From the NCBI GenBank assembly GCA_002070605.1, contig MWDO01000004.1, forward strand, positions 8,184 through 72,183: a stretch of 64,000 nt of DNA, read 5' to 3'. Numbering within the stretch: position 1 is the stretch's first letter; every line of letters starts with the position of its first letter. Both the position numbers and the translations under genes were made by a program. Shown here one piece after another: positions 4,829 through 61,039 of the stretch. The DNA comes from Spirochaetes bacterium ADurb.Bin133. Lineage in GTDB: Bacteria; Spirochaetota; GWE2-31-10; MWDO01. The notes beneath the pieces were generated by a model, which was given only the letters and a program-made list of their open reading frames with translations, ran no database searches and had not been told where the DNA came from.

Positions 4829-4970
4829 GCCCGTCGGTCTTTTGGGGTGGGGAAAATAAATTCGACACATATGCGTCGCTGTGTTTCATCTTATAGTTTG
4901 ACGCATATGTGTCAATTTGAAGGAACTGTCTCAAGAGTTCTCATTCCTCCCTAAAAAACCGGCGAGGGTA
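4829..4970. repeat. Copy of the MITE-like palindrome-bearing intergenic element
   Basis: Left end GCCCGTCGGTCTTTTGGGG, units TTCGACACATATGCGTCG and TTTGACGCATATGTGTCAA, right end CCCTAAAAAACCGGCGAGGG. Confidence 0.6.
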
Positions 4971-5825: not shown

Positions 5826-5849
5826 TATATTGCGGAATATAAATTAATT

Positions 5850-6365
5850 TTAGGTAGAGTGGACGTATTTGGGATAATTTTCGATTACGAGGGCGTATAA
5901 TAGCCGTTTTTGAGCGGCGATACTCAACAGTTGTGTCATTTTACCCAAAAAGTCTTTTTCCACTTTATCAATCCTTAATTTCTTACCAACAAGCTCAAGA
6001 AATCCTTCCAACCCGTATTTCATAACGCCGTTATAAAAAAACAGTATGATATCGCGGACTATCGAAGCTATACAGAATTCGTTATACAAGGAATGCCATT
6101 TTTTTATTTTTAAATAGTCCGCTTCGCTAATTCTAAGGTATTTATCCAGCCTTTTATCGTCGGAGTTATCTATAACGGCGTATTCGGAGCGGCAATTTCC
6201 GATTATTCTTTTCATCTTTAGGACTTTTTTGTCAATAAGGCGAAACATAGTTTCAAACAGTTTGCTGAACGTATTAATTTTGAACTCTTTTAGTAGAAAA
6301 TCTATGACATTGGTATTCATAGATTCCGATACTATAAAATGGAACAAATGTTTTTTGTTTTTCAT
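5850..6365 (-). CDS. Hypothetical protein
   Basis: A 171-codon ORF with protein-like composition. No recognisable motif. Confidence 0.4.
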   Translation of the reverse strand: MKNKKHLFHFIVSESMNTNVIDFLLKEFKINTFSKLFETMFRLIDKKVLKMKRIIGNCRSEYAVIDNSDDKRLDKYLRISEADYLKIKKWHSLYNEFCIASIVRDIILFFYNGVMKYGLEGFLELVGKKLRIDKVEKDFLGKMTQLLSIAAQKRLLYALVIENYPKYVHST

Positions 6366-6445
6366 AAAATTTTCTCCTTTTTCTTTTATATATATAACAA
6401 TTAAAAGTAGAAAACGTTATACAAAAACTTGTATAAATTTTTAGA

Positions 6446-6527
6446 AAATAACAAATAATTTACTAATCAAAAATATTTTTCTCATATGTGTCAATTTTCT
6501 CTTCTACTACCAACAAACCGTTGGGGG
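6446..6527. repeat. Partial copy of the MITE-like element: internal conserved block plus one CATATGTGTCAA unit and a degenerate right end
   Basis: AATAATTTACTAATCAAAAATATTTTTCTCATATGTGTCAATTTT matches the conserved internal block seen at 12166, 16296 and 60881. It ends CAAACCGTTGGGGG. Confidence 0.5.
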
Positions 6528-11160: not shown

Positions 11161-11318
11161 GGCTAGGGCGGGCGCTTTTGATCGTCCTGAACCAAGCCGA
11201 AGGACGACGCATATGATGTTCAAGGAGGGAATTGACACATATGCGCCGCGCTACGCCTTGATGAAAAAATTGACACATATGTAACAAATATTTTTTATTC
11301 CCCAAAAAAACCGACGGA
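11161..11318. repeat. MITE-like element copy with three CATATG units and a clear right end TTCCCCAAAAAAACCGACGG. It forms the left flank of the PIN cassette.
   Basis: Contains GACGCATATG and two TTGACACATATG units. The 44-bp block at 11238..11281 is identical to 12203..12246. Confidence 0.6.
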
Positions 11319-12155: not shown

Positions 12156-12299
12156 TTTTTTAGGGAATAAAAAAATAATTTACTAATTTAAAATATTTGT
12201 TTCATATGCGCCGCGCTACGCCTTGATGAAAAAATTGACACATATGCGTCAAAAAAAATCGCCCATATGCGTCAAATTTCCAAAAAACCGACGGCGCGA
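12148..12299. repeat. MITE-like element copy forming the right flank of the PIN cassette
   Basis: Degenerate left end CCTGTTAGTTTTTTAGGG, a conserved internal block, three CATATG units, and right end TTCCAAAAAACCGACGGCGCG. Confidence 0.6.
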
Positions 12300-16271: not shown

Positions 16272-16434
16272 GCGCGCCCCGTCGGTTTTTTGGGGGATAA
16301 AAAATAATTTGCTAGTTAAAAATATTTGTTTCATATGTGTCAATTTTAATAGGCGCCTCAATCCGACGCATATGTGTCAATTTATCCTTAGCTCCATATG
16401 TGTCAATTTTTCTCCCGCCCCAAAAAACCGACGG
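16272..16434. mobile_element. Complete MITE-like element with terminal inverted repeats and three CATATGTGTCAA units
   Basis: Left end GCGCGCCCCGTCGGTTTTTTGGGGG and right end CCCGCCCCAAAAAACCGACGG are inverted repeats of each other. The conserved internal block GATAAAAAATAATTTGCTAGTTAAAAATATTTGTTTCATATGTGTCAATTTT is present. Confidence 0.65.
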
Positions 16435-21310: not shown

Positions 21311-21392
21311 GGCGCCCCGTCGGTTATTTGGGGATTGAGAAATATTTGTTCCATATGCGTCAAATTTCTCTTCCCTAAAAAACCGCCGGGGT
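21311..21392. mobile_element. Short MITE-like element with inverted-repeat ends and a single CCATATGCGTCAA unit
   Basis: GGCGCCCCGTCGGTTATTTGGGG ... CCCTAAAAAACCGCCGGGGT. Confidence 0.6.
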
Positions 21393-24894: not shown

Positions 24895-25068
24895 ACGCCG
24901 CGCCCCCGGTTTTTTGCGGTAAAAAAATGACACATATGCGACTCCTTTCGTATAGGGACGTCCGGTCGTATGAGTTCCTGTGGGGGAAAAATTGACGCAT
25001 ATGTGTCATTATGGAAATCGACGCATATGAGCTGCATATATAACGCGCCGCGCGTCGATAAAAAGGGC
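24895..25068. repeat. MITE-like element copy with three CATATG units and degenerate ends
   Basis: Left end ACGCCGCGCCCCCGGTTTTTTGCGG, followed by TGACACATATGCGAC, TTGACGCATATGTGTCA and TCGACGCATATGAGC. Confidence 0.55.
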
Positions 25069-34469: not shown

Positions 34470-34579
34470 CGGCGCCCGTCGGTTTTTTGGGAGAGGGGAA
34501 TTGACACATATGACGTTAAAGATAAAATTGACACATATGGAGCAAATATTGTTATCCCCCAAAAACCGACGGGGCGCCC
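34470..34579. mobile_element. Prototype ~110-bp MITE-like element with perfect terminal inverted repeats and two TTGACACATATG units
   Basis: CGGCGCCCGTCGGTTTTTTGGG ... CCCCCAAAAACCGACGGGGCGCC. The ends are reverse complements over about 20 bp. Confidence 0.7.
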
Positions 34580-39603: not shown

Positions 39604-39732
39604 GCCCGCCGGTTTTTTTGGGGGAGGAGAAATTGACGCATATGCGACGGCGTCGATAACGCGCGACAATTGTTGCATAAAAATTCGACGCATATGTGTC
39701 AATTGTTTTTTTATCCCCAAAAAACCGACGGC
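39604..39732. mobile_element. MITE-like element with inverted-repeat ends and two palindrome units
   Basis: GCCCGCCGGTTTTTTTGGGGG ... TCCCCAAAAAACCGACGGC, with TTGACGCATATGCGAC and TTCGACGCATATGTGTCAA inside. Confidence 0.65.
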
Positions 39733-48001: not shown

Positions 48002-48166
48002 TTACTGACTAATTGCATTAACGGGGCATACCGCCGCGCAACTGCCGCAGTCGGTACATTTTTCTTCGTCGATTTTGTATGGACTTCCCTCGGATATAGC
48101 GTCAACCGGACACTCCGACATGCAAGTCCCGCACTCGATACAGTCGTCAGAAATCTTATAAGCCAT
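48002..48166 (-). CDS. 54-aa 2[4Fe-4S] ferredoxin, absent from the ORF track (below its size cutoff)
   Basis: The reverse-strand translation is MAYKISDDCIECGTCMSECPVDAISEGSPYKIDEEKCTDCGSCAAVCPVNAISQ. It contains two CxxCxxCxxxCP motifs. The overlapping track ORF at 47995..48261 is in a different frame and low-complexity. Confidence 0.8.
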   Translation of the reverse strand: MAYKISDDCIECGTCMSECPVDAISEGSPYKIDEEKCTDCGSCAAVCPVNAISQ

Positions 48167-48254
48167 CTTAATAGCCTCCTAATAAATATTTCATTATAAT
48201 ATACAAAAAAAAATCGATTTGGTAAATATATTTTATCATTATTTTTTACCAAGA

Positions 48255-48465
48255 GACGCATATGCGTCAGACCAAAACCGCATATGCGTCAAATTACTCT
48301 TAACATCATATGTGTCAATATTTCTTTCTACGACAATTGTCGCGCGTTATCGACCCGGCGCGTATGTCAAATTCTCTCGGGGAGCATGGCGTCTCATATG
48401 TGTCAATTTTTGTCGAGGAGCGACGCGGCGTCGCATATGCGTTGATTTATTTTGACACATATGCG
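48255..48465. repeat. Array of six 18-bp palindrome units (CATATG-centred, TTGAC/GTCAA arms) with variable spacers
   Basis: CATATG centres lie at 48259, 48281, 48307, 48396, 48434 and 48458. Sub-repeat TCGAGGAGCGACGCG-N-CATATG. Confidence 0.65.
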
Positions 48466-48576
48466 ACGATTTTTTCATCGGGGAGCGACGGGGCGCAAAA
48501 TACCGATTAAAAAGATAGAAAACAATTCAATTTAAGTGTATAATATAGGTTAAATAAAAAAAAGCAAGGCGTATAG

Positions 48577-50076
48577 ATGAAAAAACATTTGATTTTGGCG
48601 CTGTTAATTGCCGTCATGGCAGATATGTATCCGGTAAAAATTAAGATCGACCAAAAGGATAAAACGAAAGAGCCGATTATCTTACAGGCGATATTAGATA
48701 CCGGTTTCGGAATTGTCGGGGTAAACGACGGCGTTGGGGTAACGGATTATCAATCTTATTTTATCAAGACCGCTTTTCATATTAATGATTTTGGGATCGG
48801 TTTGGATTTTACTATCAGGTTTAAAATATTCTCTTTGGAACCCGAGTTCCGTTTTCGCGATTGGTATATCGAAGGGGATCCGTTGGCGACCGTTTTTTTA
48901 TATCTCGACAGGATAGATTATATACGATACGGGAACGCGCAAAGCCCGATTTTTTTTACGACGGGCAAGATTCCTTATACGACTTTCGGATCGGGGACGC
49001 TTGTAAACAATTTTCATAATAACTTTTTTGTCCCGATTAATAAAGAAAACGGCGCGTATTTTCGCCTCGACGGAGAGTATTTTGAAAAATATAAGATAAA
49101 AAACATCCCTATCAATTTTACTTTTTTTTGCCCGGATTTACTGGATCCCGACATATTTGGATTTGATTTCAATATAAACCCCCTTGGATTTGCTAAATTC
49201 AAAGATATTTTCAAATTATCGTTAGGCGTTACTTTTATGTCGGATCTTGATACTTTTGAGAGAAACAGGCTGAGCGCTCTCAAAGGGCAATATTTTCAAA
49301 GCCATAGAAATTTTCACGTTAACGGATTTAGTTCGGCGTTGATTAGCGGATCCGTTCCGATATCTTTTGTATATTTTAAAAAGGATTACGTCAAAGTATC
49401 TGTAATCGACGAAGTAGCTTTTGCATACAACGGAGCCAATCCGTCCGATCCGGATAAGTCCGATTTTGGGATTGCCAATAATCTTGAAGTGGAAGCGAGA
49501 TTCTTAAACGTTAAGAATTCCGGATTGCTTTTAGGATTAAGCTCCGGATTTATCGTTCAAGGCAAAGATTTTTTTATAAATTATTTTTCCTCTAACTACC
49601 AGATAGTCAGGCAGAAGCAGTATAGCGGGCAGAGCGAAGATTATAATTTATACGTATCTGCGGGATTTGGTCTGTACGCTTTAAACGACAATTTGCATTT
49701 CAAATTTAAGATACTAATGCCGTTAATAACGGACGTATTCAAATCTAAATACGCGATGGAATTTAGATTGTCCGAATTTGCCGTTAAAGGGTTGACGATA
49801 GACGTTTTTTATGAAACGGGATGTACCGATCTGCACATATCCGGATCAAACGGGGGACACTTTCTCGAGTCGATAACGGAGAATTTCAGATTTTACGCCG
49901 AAGTAAGCTATAAGATTTATTCCGCTAAGATAAGTTTTATTATCGGGCTTCAAACTCCCGGTTGGATAGTCGAGGAAGACTATTTGCCGCCGGAAAATCC
50001 TAACGAGTTTTATATAGAGAGATATGGCGCTGATATTCAAAAATTTGTCGGAGTGGGGGTGTCTTTTGTTTTATAA
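48577..50076 (+). CDS. Hypothetical secreted / outer-membrane-like protein
   Basis: Signal peptide MKKHLILALLIAVMA. Aromatic-rich alternating pattern. C-terminus ends in a hydrophobic residue. No domain recognised. Confidence 0.5.
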   Translation: MKKHLILALLIAVMADMYPVKIKIDQKDKTKEPIILQAILDTGFGIVGVNDGVGVTDYQSYFIKTAFHINDFGIGLDFTIRFKIFSLEPEFRFRDWYIEGDPLATVFLYLDRIDYIRYGNAQSPIFFTTGKIPYTTFGSGTLVNNFHNNFFVPINKENGAYFRLDGEYFEKYKIKNIPINFTFFCPDLLDPDIFGFDFNINPLGFAKFKDIFKLSLGVTFMSDLDTFERNRLSALKGQYFQSHRNFHVNGFSSALISGSVPISFVYFKKDYVKVSVIDEVAFAYNGANPSDPDKSDFGIANNLEVEARFLNVKNSGLLLGLSSGFIVQGKDFFINYFSSNYQIVRQKQYSGQSEDYNLYVSAGFGLYALNDNLHFKFKILMPLITDVFKSKYAMEFRLSEFAVKGLTIDVFYETGCTDLHISGSNGGHFLESITENFRFYAEVSYKIYSAKISFIIGLQTPGWIVEEDYLPPENPNEFYIERYGADIQKFVGVGVSFVL

Positions 50077-52904: not shown

Positions 52905-53075
52905 CTGTCGGCGTTTTGGGGCTAAAAATTTTTGACACATATGCGTCGCATAATAATTCGACGCATATGTGTCAATTTCTTCATCGAGAAGCGGCGCGTA
53001 TCATATGTGTCAATTTCTCATCGAGGAGCGACGCGTATCATATGTGTCAAATTCTATCAAGACGCGTCGAGGCGC
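52905..53075. repeat. Array of four to five palindrome units with left end TGTCGGCGTTTTGGGG
   Basis: CATATG centres lie at 52939, 52964, 53002 and 53039. Tandem sub-unit TCATCGAGGAGCGACGCGTATCATATGTGTCAATTTC. Confidence 0.65.
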
Positions 53076-60861: not shown

Positions 60862-60930
60862 TCCCGTCGGGTTTTTTGGGAATTAAAAATATTTGTTTCA
60901 TATGTGTCATTTTATTTGACACATATGCGA
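60862..60930. repeat. Truncated MITE-like element (left end plus conserved block plus two units) with no right inverted repeat
   Basis: TCCCGTCGGGTTTTTTGGG-AATTAAAAATATTTGTTTCATATGTGTCATTTTATTTGACACATATGCGAC. Confidence 0.55.
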
Positions 60931-61039
60931 CTGTTTCGACATGCGGGTCAAGGGCGTTTCGCCCTTGCGCTGTCCGAGTAGGACAAGATCTTGACTTTTT
61001 ATAAAATTTAACTTATATTTAGAATAAGAGGTAAATAAT

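What the first reader, a model, noticed from the sequence alone, without database searches (positions are those of the whole stretch)
48255..48465. Six-unit palindrome array in a divergent promoter region between the ferredoxin and a secreted-protein gene
Six CATATG-centred dyads lie within 210 bp, with spacers of roughly 20-90 bp: GACGCATATGCGTCAG, CCGCATATGCGTCAAA, TCATATGTGTCAATA, TCTCATATGTGTCAATTT, GTCGCATATGCGTTGA and TTGACACATATGCGACG. Between them is a repeated GC-rich linker, TCGAGGAGCGACGCG. This locus lacks the inverted-repeat ends of the solo elements. It therefore looks like local tandem amplification of the unit, or a multi-operator array. The irregular spacing excludes a CRISPR array.
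Basis: seen in the sequence. Interest (0 to 1): 0.6.

Follow-up and report, generated by a model that had tools for sequence, protein, structure and literature searches.

The report
Leftover array from a transposon family
The six-unit array is real, but it is not a private control region for the two flanking genes: it is an end-less, mosaic copy of the inner repeat modules of a very abundant, undescribed mobile-element family in an uncultured digester spirochaete, and those modules probably carry the binding site of a small DNA-binding protein encoded by the parent element.

Summary
Six CATATG-centred units and one decayed seventh lie at 48255-48497, with GC-rich linkers, and twelve independent assemblies reproduce them.

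The unit is genome-wide: 43 hits at about 14 loci in the window, against 0.8 expected. The conserved unit is an asymmetric 15-mer, AAW-TGACR-CATATG, not a palindrome.

It forms the interior of a transposable-element family:
- Short elements of 72-312 bp (mode 100 bp) have ~22-bp inverted ends and 8-9-bp target-site duplications. Thirty of 55 show a duplication, against 2.9 in a permuted control.
- A ~0.7-0.85-kb parent form carries a 171-aa gene (ORF171) and no transposase. There are at least 24 distinct copies, with dN/dS 0.12.
- ORF171 is predicted to be a single-chain tandem ribbon-helix-helix protein; its best structural match is F-plasmid TraY.
- A 43%-identical homologue in another organism has the same 14-mer at a similar distance (118 bp against about 125 bp) upstream of its start codon.
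- End-less arrays also occur, with up to 23 units.

Arrays change between strains by gain, loss and replacement of modules. The finding locus has no inverted ends and no duplication. It is absent next to the orthologous gene in a related species.

Most likely it is a passive cluster of ORF171 binding sites. A new member of a known kind; moderate interest.

The parts
48255..48497 (.). The finding: a mosaic array of six intact units and one decayed unit, without inverted ends and without a target-site duplication.
   Evidence: The right edge, 48497/48498, is where homology with the related species L012 begins.
48259..48269 (+). Unit 1, CATATGCGTCA. It sits inside a true dyad, GACGCATATGCGTC (48255-48268).
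48281..48291 (+). Unit 2, CATATGCGTCA, 22 bp after unit 1. The same module type occurs at 12241/12264.
48307..48317 (+). Unit 3, CATATGTGTCA, preceded by the 'CTTAACAT' 26-27-bp module, the commonest module type in the family.
48333..48372 (+). Palindrome-bearing module ACGACAATTGTCGCGCGTTATCGAC followed by decayed unit 4, CGTATGTCAAAT.
   Evidence: 91% identical to 39639-39673 in reverse. The same module occurs in L027, L072, L076 and L095.
48395..48405 (+). Unit 5, CATATGTGTCA, followed by the GC-rich linker TCGAGGAGCGACGCG (48413-48427).
   Evidence: 90% identical to the 37-bp tandem unit at 52996-53035.
48434..48463 (.). Units 6 and 7 facing each other: CATATGCGTTGATTTATTTTGACACATATG. The same inverted-pair module occurs at 60899-60927.
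48478..48497 (+). Terminal GC-rich linker TCGGGGAGCGACGGGGCGC. Its last 12 nt differ by 1 from the outer end of the family's inverted repeat (CCGACGGGGCGC). Whether it is a linker or a remnant of an element end is ambiguous.
48002..48166 (-). Flanking gene: a 54-aa 2x[4Fe-4S] ferredoxin. Its start is 89 bp from the array.
   Evidence: Pfam Fer4
48577..50076 (+). Flanking gene: a 499-aa protein with no Pfam family. A promoter-like TAGAAA-17-TATAAT at 48516-48544 lies between array and gene and is conserved in L012.
5835..6527 (-). The window's own copy of the parent element. ORF171 is at 5850-6365 (minus strand) and one unit at 6483-6497. The right end is degenerate (CCAACAAACCGTTGGGGG) and the left end is lost.
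16279..16434 (.). Complete short element with 3 units, both inverted ends and the 8-9-bp duplication (G)CAAATTTT.
21317..21389 (.). Minimal 73-bp element: end, 15-mer unit, end.
34476..34572 (.). Complete 97-bp element with 2 units.
39606..39731 (.). Complete 126-bp element carrying the palindrome module also present in the finding.
4831..4965 (.). Complete 135-bp element in another divergent spacer.
52905..53070 (+). Array with one recognisable end and a clean 37-bp tandem repeat of 2.8 copies (52964-53066), built from the same unit plus linker as 48395-48433.
11205..11317 (-). Family array with one end.
12203..12294 (+). Family array with one end and a 23-bp two-unit repeat.
24903..25065 (.). 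Family array with one degenerate end.
60864..60935 (+). Family array with one end and the inverted-pair module.

Best explanation
The locus is a decayed or recombined derivative of a lineage-specific transposable-element family in an uncultured anaerobic-digester spirochaete. It has no inverted ends and no gene.

Shown:
- The family has ~22-bp inverted ends (5'-GTAATCCGTCRGTTTTTTGGGG or GGCGCCCCGTCGG...) and makes 8-9-bp target-site duplications.
- Its interior is a variable string of modules. Each module carries the 15-mer AAW-TGACR-CATATG.
- A longer form carries ORF171 and no transposase. The short elements are that form with the gene deleted.
- Modules are gained, lost and swapped between strains. 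End-less arrays are a recurrent class.

Inferred:
- The 15-mer is the binding site of the ORF171 protein, a single-chain tandem ribbon-helix-helix protein of the TraY type. Such proteins bind trains of direct and inverted sites.
- In the parent element the site serves autoregulation, or assembly of the transposition complex near one end.
- An unidentified DDE-type transposase acts in trans.
- Arrays grow and shrink by slippage and recombination between the conserved 15-mers.

At 48255-48497 the array is therefore most likely a passive cluster of about 6 such sites upstream of two promoters. Any effect on the ferredoxin gene or the 499-aa gene would be incidental.
For: Dispersed family:
- The unit occurs 43 times against 0.77 expected, and the end motif 16 times against 0.23.
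- All of the roughly 12 loci in the window are intergenic.
- There are 172 distinct arrays in 108 metagenome loci.

Transposon hallmarks:
- There are 55 non-redundant short elements, with a length mode of exactly 100 bp.
- Thirty of the 55 have a flanking direct repeat of at least 7 nt. Permuted flanks give a mean of 2.9 and a maximum of 7.

Parent element:
- Window 5835-6497 matches 24 distinct copies at 84-91% identity, with sharp boundaries at the unit and at the end beyond the stop codon.
- Eight copies have both ends, 698-843 bp apart.

ORF171:
- 100 homologues at 76-100% identity all come from this lineage, with at least 10 in one MAG.
- Only 16 hits were found among 1.84 billion cluster representatives.
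- Median dN/dS is 0.118.
- The AlphaFold model (pLDDT 72) is beta-alpha-alpha twice.
- The best PDB matches are the roughly 110-residue chains E, F and G of the F relaxosome (probability 0.99, TM 0.62), then VirC2. I take these chains to be TraY. The paper describes three TraY copies in that structure. It also says TraY is a single-chain RHH protein that binds two direct sites and one inverted site (PMC12117103). The chain assignment was not checked.
- Distant homologues hit Pfam RHH_3 above its cut-off and the PHROG 'Arc-like repressor' family at 4e-6.

Link between site and protein:
- The homologue P0131 (43% identity, single copy, another organism) has AAATGACACATATG 118 bp upstream of its ATG. 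The corresponding distance for ORF171 is about 125 bp.

Dynamics:
- Strain pairs differ by a 27-bp unit indel, by module replacement and by a 9-bp duplication.
- Between two strains the array diverges at 8 of 243 positions. The rest of the spacer shows 0 of 167 and the 499-aa gene 10 of 1500.

The locus itself:
- Every one of its modules recurs elsewhere.
- The array is absent in related species L012, where homology starts exactly at 48498.
- Thirty-three of 172 arrays lack both ends, as this one does.
Against: - This locus has no inverted ends and no target-site duplication. Its own origin by transposition is inferred from family membership, not shown.
- L012 is not a clean empty site, because the genes upstream differ.
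- No transposase with matching ends was found in about 0.96 Mb.
- ORF171 itself hits no Pfam, NCBIfam or PDB sequence family.
- Binding of ORF171 to the 15-mer is untested.
- A more distant homologue (P0134, 34% identity) lacks the motif upstream.
- Only 2 of 8 full-length copies show a duplication.
Confidence: 0.75

Rival explanations
1. It is a dedicated multi-operator array. A regulator binds the CATATG dyads to control the divergent ferredoxin and 499-aa genes.
For: The array sits between two divergent promoters. Unit number is the same in two strains.
Against: The same units occur in about 12 other spacers of this window next to unrelated genes. They are found in convergent, co-directional and divergent spacers alike, at 13, 29 and 12 sites. 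The related species keeps the 499-aa gene's promoter but has no array. The array diverges faster than its flanks.
Confidence: 0.08
2. It is purely selfish or neutral repeat DNA. The conserved 15-mer is a sub-terminal binding site for the unknown transposase, or is merely the homology that drives slippage. ORF171 is an unrelated passenger.
For: Transposon hallmarks are present. Module turnover always has its end points at the 15-mers. ORF171 binding is untested.
Against: The same 14-mer is conserved upstream of a 43%-identical, single-copy homologue that lies outside any inverted-repeat element. This ties the site to the gene family and not to the transposon ends. ORF171 is under strong purifying selection in all copies.
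Confidence: 0.15
3. It encodes a structured RNA or small RNA, or acts as a transcript-level hairpin, as proposed for BOX, ERIC and Correia elements.
For: The plus strand folds better than shuffles (z = -3.35). Family elements with both ends would form long stems.
Against: The predicted helices are just pairings between repeated dyads. The minus strand gives z = -1.87. Rfam finds nothing at gathering threshold or at E<=1. This locus lacks the ends that would form the long stem.
Confidence: 0.03
4. It is a REP/REPIN-type element moved by a RAYT (Y1) transposase, or a degenerate CRISPR array.
For: The units are palindrome-like and intergenic. A weak Y1_Tnp gene sits at the orthologous position in a distant relative.
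Against: No Y1 transposase is found in the window or the loci by tblastn. The elements have ~22-bp inverted ends and 8-9-bp duplications, which I recall REPs lack. The relative with the Y1 gene has no CATATG units. Spacings are multimodal at 22-48 bp, with no unique spacers.
Confidence: 0.02

Closest known systems
BOX elements of Streptococcus pneumoniae (boxA-boxB(n)-boxC), a modular MITE-like repeat (PMC3049150)
   Same: Both are small, intergenic and high in copy number. Both have inverted ends and target-site duplications. Both have an interior made of a variable number of tandem modules. Both range widely in size (BOX 67-637 bp; here 72-312 bp, with longer end-less arrays). In both, length varies between strains through gain and loss of modules.
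   Different: No relationship in sequence is claimed or was tested. Here there are several module types sharing one 15-mer. There is a longer form with a protein gene. End-less satellite arrays of up to 23 units also exist.
Mobile insertion cassettes (MICs): inverted ends flanking passenger genes, with no transposase (as I recall them; a qnrS2-carrying example is reported in PMC5444012)
   Same: The ~0.7-0.85-kb form has the family's inverted ends around a single non-transposase gene. It is multi-copy, so presumably it is moved in trans.
   Different: The passenger is a DNA-binding protein whose upstream site makes up the interior of the derived short elements. The mobilising insertion sequence is unknown.
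F-plasmid TraY (single-chain tandem ribbon-helix-helix protein) on its oriT sites (PMC12117103)
   Same: The predicted fold of ORF171 is beta-alpha-alpha twice in one chain. TraY binds a 'train' of two direct sites and one inverted site, and the finding has five direct units and one inverted unit.
   Different: There is no detectable sequence similarity. ORF171 has about 50 extra helical residues at its C-terminus. No relaxase or oriT context is present. Binding is untested.
Correia elements of Neisseria, which carry IHF sites (PMC10969869)
   Same: A MITE family that spreads a protein-binding site through intergenic regions and can alter neighbouring transcription.
   Different: In Correia elements the bound protein is a host factor. 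Here the candidate is encoded by the element family itself.

Membership tests
MITE (miniature inverted-repeat transposable element) | Terminal inverted repeats | tested here: met
   Met for the family: 17-22-nt ends at 55 non-redundant elements. Not met for the finding locus itself, where the best match has 6-7 mismatches of 17.
MITE | Target-site duplication | tested here: met
   Met for the family: 30 of 55 elements have a flanking repeat of at least 7 nt, against 2.9 in permuted controls. The typical length is 8-9 bp. None is present at 48255/48497 (longest shared string, by eye, is 4 nt).
MITE | Small, non-coding, many copies | tested here: met
   Lengths are 72-312 bp with a mode of 100 bp. 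There are about 12 loci per 64 kb.
MITE | A partner insertion sequence with the same ends that encodes the transposase | tested here: inconclusive
   None was found in 0.96 Mb. Pairs of ends more than 400 bp apart enclose only ORF171 (843 bp) or a 466-bp stretch that was not examined; the 4.5-6.5-kb pairs look like ends of separate elements. The other multi-copy segments encode TPR and lipoprotein paralogues. The complete genome was not available.
Mobile insertion cassette | Inverted ends flanking a passenger gene, with no transposase inside | tested here: met
   Eight copies have both ends 698-843 bp apart around ORF171.
Mobile insertion cassette | Evidence that the whole cassette transposed (target-site duplication) | tested here: inconclusive
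   A duplication is seen in 2 of 8 copies: L041 AATAGAGA and L021 TCAAAAC. The copies are old (dS about 0.5).
Ribbon-helix-helix DNA-binding proteins (for ORF171) | Beta-alpha-alpha fold, two motifs forming the DNA-binding sheet | tested here: met
   The AlphaFold model (pLDDT 72) has a strand at 5-13 with helices 14-28 and 33-47, then a strand at 72-80 with helices 81-94 and 99 onward. The top Foldseek hits are F relaxosome chains E, F and G, which I take to be TraY, at probability 0.99, then VirC2.
Ribbon-helix-helix DNA-binding proteins (for ORF171) | A sequence-profile match | tested here: inconclusive
   ORF171 itself gives no Pfam or NCBIfam hit. Distant homologues hit RHH_3 at 24.4 bits (cut-off 21.6) and the PHROG 'Arc-like repressor' family at 4e-6.
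Ribbon-helix-helix DNA-binding proteins (for ORF171) | Binds the repeated site | not testable with these tools
   Support is comparative only: the same 14-mer lies upstream of the 43%-identical homologue.
CRISPR array | Identical repeats at a regular period, separated by unique spacers of similar length | tested here: not met
   Spacings here are 22, 26, 88, 39 and 24 bp. Family spacings are multimodal, and the linkers are themselves repeated.
REP/REPIN with RAYT | Y1 transposase partner; no target-site duplication | tested here: not met
   tblastn with two Y1 proteins finds nothing. Duplications are present.
Rfam RNA families | A covariance-model match | tested here: not met
   No hits at gathering threshold over the whole window, and none at E<=1 over 48100-48650.

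The most novel reading that the evidence does not exclude
A transposase-less element family depends on its own single-chain ribbon-helix-helix protein, ORF171, and the 15-mer is that protein's operator. By spreading as short elements and end-less satellites, the family has seeded hundreds of binding sites for one element-encoded protein across the chromosome. Arrays such as 48255-48497 would then assemble TraY-like protein trains on the DNA. The module lengths of about 26.5, 37 and 47.5 bp differ by one helical turn, which would phase such trains. The trains could act as regulators, roadblocks or recombination hot spots.
Probability: 0.3. Interest if true: 0.6.

Novelty: new member of a known kind. 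Interest (0 to 1): 0.38.

Why it matters
For this window, the result removes a false lead: the array is not a bespoke regulatory region for the ferredoxin gene.

More broadly, it defines an undescribed and extremely dense repeat family, roughly one locus per 5 kb, in an uncultured digester spirochaete. The family will break assemblies and mislead promoter and operator predictions. Its arrays also differ between strains, so they could serve as strain markers.

The family is unusual in one respect. Its interior derives from the upstream site of a conserved, element-borne DNA-binding protein gene, not from a transposase gene. If ORF171 binds the 15-mer, this would be a bacterial case of a mobile element distributing the binding sites of its own protein across a genome.

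Tried and rejected
1. **Structured RNA.** Rfam gave no hits. The fold z-scores are explained by repeat-to-repeat pairing.

2. **The unit's TTGACA as the -35 box of an outward promoter that selection uses to drive neighbouring genes.**
   - In the window, 4 of 4 informative elements pointed at a gene start.
   - Among 55 non-redundant sites the split is 16 against 13, and 13 elements lie in convergent spacers.
   - The promoter scan finds no promoter-like site upstream of ORF171, because the would-be -10 box (TTTAAT or TTTGAT) lacks the A at position 2.

3. **REP/RAYT.** No Y1 transposase was found and target-site duplications are present. The Y1-like gene in L014 belongs to an unrelated AT-rich genome that has no CATATG units.

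4. **CATATG as a specially avoided restriction site kept only in the repeats.** Outside the elements the observed/expected ratio is 0.50. GTATAC, CTCGAG and GATATC are similar, so this is general palindrome avoidance.

5. **Search for an autonomous partner element.** The multi-copy segments in 0.96 Mb are TPR and lipoprotein paralogues.

6. **Things that failed or gave nothing.**
   - The first AlphaFold run, on the shallow alignment, was unusable (pLDDT 52).
   - A PDB sequence-profile search gave nothing.
   - PADLOC gave nothing.
   - The viral contig scan gave no hits.

7. **A target-site duplication or inverted end at the finding locus itself.** None was found.

Full report
**Observation**

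The 410-bp spacer lies between a 54-aa ferredoxin gene (48002-48166, minus strand) and a 499-aa gene (48577-50076, plus strand). A seventh, decayed unit (CGTATG-TCAAAT) lies at 48361. GC-rich linkers lie at 48377, 48413 and 48478. The array ends at 48497.

The pattern is far beyond chance. CATATGYGTCA with at most 1 mismatch occurs 43 times in the window against 0.77 expected. Thirty-two of the 33 CATATG hexamers in the window lie in such loci.

The spacer is essentially identical in nine assemblies from different samples, one of which differs at four positions. Three assemblies of a variant strain have the same six units. It is therefore not an assembly artefact.

**Host organism**

The host is an uncultured Spirochaetota MAG lineage from anaerobic digesters ('Spirochaetes bacterium ADurb.Bin133').

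**What the unit belongs to**

The same units occur at about 12 intergenic loci of the window. Many of these are bracketed by inverted ends, CCGTCRGTTTTTTGGGG (16 hits against 0.23 expected).

A pattern scan of public metagenomes returned 108 loci, about 0.9 Mb, from digester and sludge samples. A scan of viral contigs returned none.

In these data I found 55 non-redundant short elements with both ends. They are 72-312 bp long, with a sharp mode at exactly 100 bp. Their termini are 5'-GT...AC-3'.

Thirty of the 55 are flanked by an identical direct repeat of at least 7 nt, typically 8-9 bp. Examples are TAAAAATTT, CTATAAAA, GGAGAACTT and CCTTGACT. Pairing each left flank with another element's right flank gives a mean of 2.9 and a maximum of 7. 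These are the hallmarks of a MITE family.

**The parent form**

An all-against-all comparison showed that window 5835-6497 is itself multi-copy. There are 24 distinct copies at 84-91% identity. Conservation begins just beyond the stop codon of a 171-aa ORF (5850-6365, minus strand). It ends exactly after a CATATGTGTCAATTT unit about 125 bp upstream of the ORF's start codon.

In other copies this block is bracketed by the same inverted ends, 698-843 bp apart. Between zero and five further CATATG modules lie between the first unit and the end.

The short elements appear to be this form with the gene deleted. Read by eye from the copies shown, the deletion joins two short AAATAATTT repeats; this was not tested formally.

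**ORF171**

- It has 100 database homologues at 76-100% identity, all from this lineage, with at least 10 in one MAG.
- Only 16 hits appear among 1.84 billion cluster representatives.
- ORF171 itself has no Pfam or NCBIfam family.
- Fifteen intact copies give a median dN/dS of 0.118 at dS 0.48, so the protein is functional.
- With distant homologues added to the alignment, AlphaFold gives pLDDT 72 and a beta-alpha-alpha motif twice in one chain.
- The best PDB matches are the roughly 110-residue chains E, F and G of the F-plasmid relaxosome (probability 0.99, TM 0.62 on the target), followed by VirC2.
- I take those chains to be TraY, although the chain assignment was not checked. The relaxosome paper describes three TraY copies in the structure. 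It states that F TraY carries a whole ribbon-helix-helix dimer fold in one polypeptide. It also states that the three copies bind as a train on two direct sites and one inverted site (PMC12117103).
- Distant homologues hit Pfam RHH_3 above its cut-off and the PHROG 'Arc-like repressor' family.

**Link between the protein and the site**

The conserved unit across 396 family units is asymmetric: AAAW-TGACR-CATATG, with a C at +9. Only 17 of 562 distinct CATATG contexts are true dyads. An asymmetric site suits a pseudo-dimeric single-chain protein.

P0131 is a 43%-identical homologue, single-copy in another organism, and no inverted ends were seen around it by eye. It has AAATGACACATATG 118 bp upstream of its start codon. 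At that divergence, retention of a 14-mer at about the same position argues that the site belongs to the gene family, most simply as its operator.

A 34%-identical homologue instead has three TGTAAAT direct repeats upstream.

Binding itself is inferred, not shown.

**Array dynamics**

- Arrays hold 1 to 23 CATATG units; nine arrays away from contig ends have six or more.
- Spacings fall into classes of 22-23, 26-27, 36-38 and 46-48 bp, which correspond to module types.
- Between strains I found a clean 27-bp one-unit indel, a replacement of several modules (a 126-bp difference) and a 9-bp duplication.
- Pure head-to-tail arrays of the ~47-bp module without inverted ends reach 8, 11 and 23 units.
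- Thirty-three of 172 arrays have no end within 110 bp.

**The finding locus in this frame**

Each of its modules recurs elsewhere:

| Module | Location in the finding | Where it recurs |
|---|---|---|
| 22-bp module | 48259 to 48281 | as at 12241/12264 |
| 26-bp 'CTTAACAT' module | 48281 to 48307 | commonest type in the family |
| palindrome module | 48333-48358 | 91% identical to 39639-39673 |
| ~39-bp GC-linker module | 48395 to 48434 | 90% identical to the 37-bp tandem unit at 52996-53035 |
| inverted pair | 48434/48458 | as at 60899/60922 |

The locus has no end core and no target-site duplication. In the variant strain it has the same units. It differs there at 8 of 243 positions, against 0 of 167 in the rest of the spacer and 10 of 1500 in the 499-aa gene. 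That strain also has an unrelated 94-bp indel next to the array.

In a related species (92% protein identity for the 499-aa gene), homology begins exactly at 48498. The promoter-like TAGAAA-17-TATAAT is conserved and the array is absent, but the upstream genes differ as well.

**Rivals**

- A locus-specific operator array is contradicted by the genome-wide spread, and by the lack of any preference for orientation or spacer type. In co-directional spacers the split is 16 against 13, and 13 elements lie in convergent spacers.
- A structured RNA has no support beyond trivial repeat pairing.
- REP/RAYT and CRISPR fail their defining features.
- The reading that the 15-mer serves only transposition or slippage, with ORF171 an unrelated passenger, remains possible. 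The P0131 comparison weakens it.

**Verdict**

The array is a transposon-derived relic of a new family of a known kind: a modular MITE or insertion cassette that works like the pneumococcal BOX elements (PMC3049150). It probably carries binding sites for the family's own ribbon-helix-helix protein.

Noticed in passing
window 5850-6365 (minus strand) and 5835-6527: A 171-aa ORF with no Pfam or NCBIfam family is a multi-copy gene: 24 distinct copies at 84-91% nucleotide identity, with dN/dS 0.12. It is predicted to be a single-chain tandem ribbon-helix-helix protein. It is the cargo of the parent element of the repeat family.
   Followed up: yes
window 52964-53066: A clean 37-bp tandem repeat of 2.8 copies, built from the same unit and GC-rich linker, lies downstream of the 934-aa gene. 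Only one inverted end (52905) is recognisable.
   Followed up: partly
window 48243/48244, against L125-L127:1080-1175: The variant strain has 94 extra bp just left of the array, flanked by the 8-bp direct repeat TTTTACCA. The segment is unrelated to the CATATG units. It is either a deletion between repeats or a second small insertion element.
   Followed up: no
L011:1990-3150 against L065:9830-10330: The same right flank (CATCTATGGTAAAAGTCAACG...) adjoins the ~47-bp satellite array in opposite orientations in the two assemblies. This is either an inversion between palindromic CATATG cores or a mis-assembly.
   Followed up: partly
all loci: CATATG-to-CATATG spacings cluster at 26-27, 36-38 and 46-48 bp. 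These are steps of about 10.5 bp, one helical turn, which would phase bound proteins. It may be coincidence.
   Followed up: no
window and L017-L124: About 92% of all CATATG hexamers lie inside the elements. Outside them the observed/expected ratio is 0.50, similar to GTATAC, CTCGAG and GATATC. Several palindromic hexamers (ACTAGT, GCATGC, CACGTG, GTGCAC) are absent from the 62 kb of unmasked window.
   Followed up: partly
L012:150-225: In the related species that lacks the intergenic elements, ACACATATGTGTCAAC occurs twice inside a Ser/Thr-rich coding stretch of a 1113-aa protein.
   Followed up: no
L014:9130-9842: A 163-aa gene with a weak Y1_Tnp (PF01797) hit lies just upstream of the 52%-identical orthologue of the 499-aa gene. 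It is preceded by three direct repeats, TTTATAAGTCTGTCCCTC. The catalytic tyrosine motif looks substituted.
   Followed up: partly
L128:2880-2895 and L130:420-460: The single-copy ORF171 homologue P0131 keeps AAATGACACATATG 118 bp upstream of its start codon. The more distant P0134 instead has three TGTAAAT direct repeats upstream, which may be a changed operator.
   Followed up: partly
L097:10258-11844 and L046:4828-5875: Tandem families of roughly 163-aa lipoprotein paralogues (75-96% nucleotide identity), and a 1315-aa protein rich in TPR repeats (L069), are the other multi-copy sequences in this organism's contigs.
   Followed up: no
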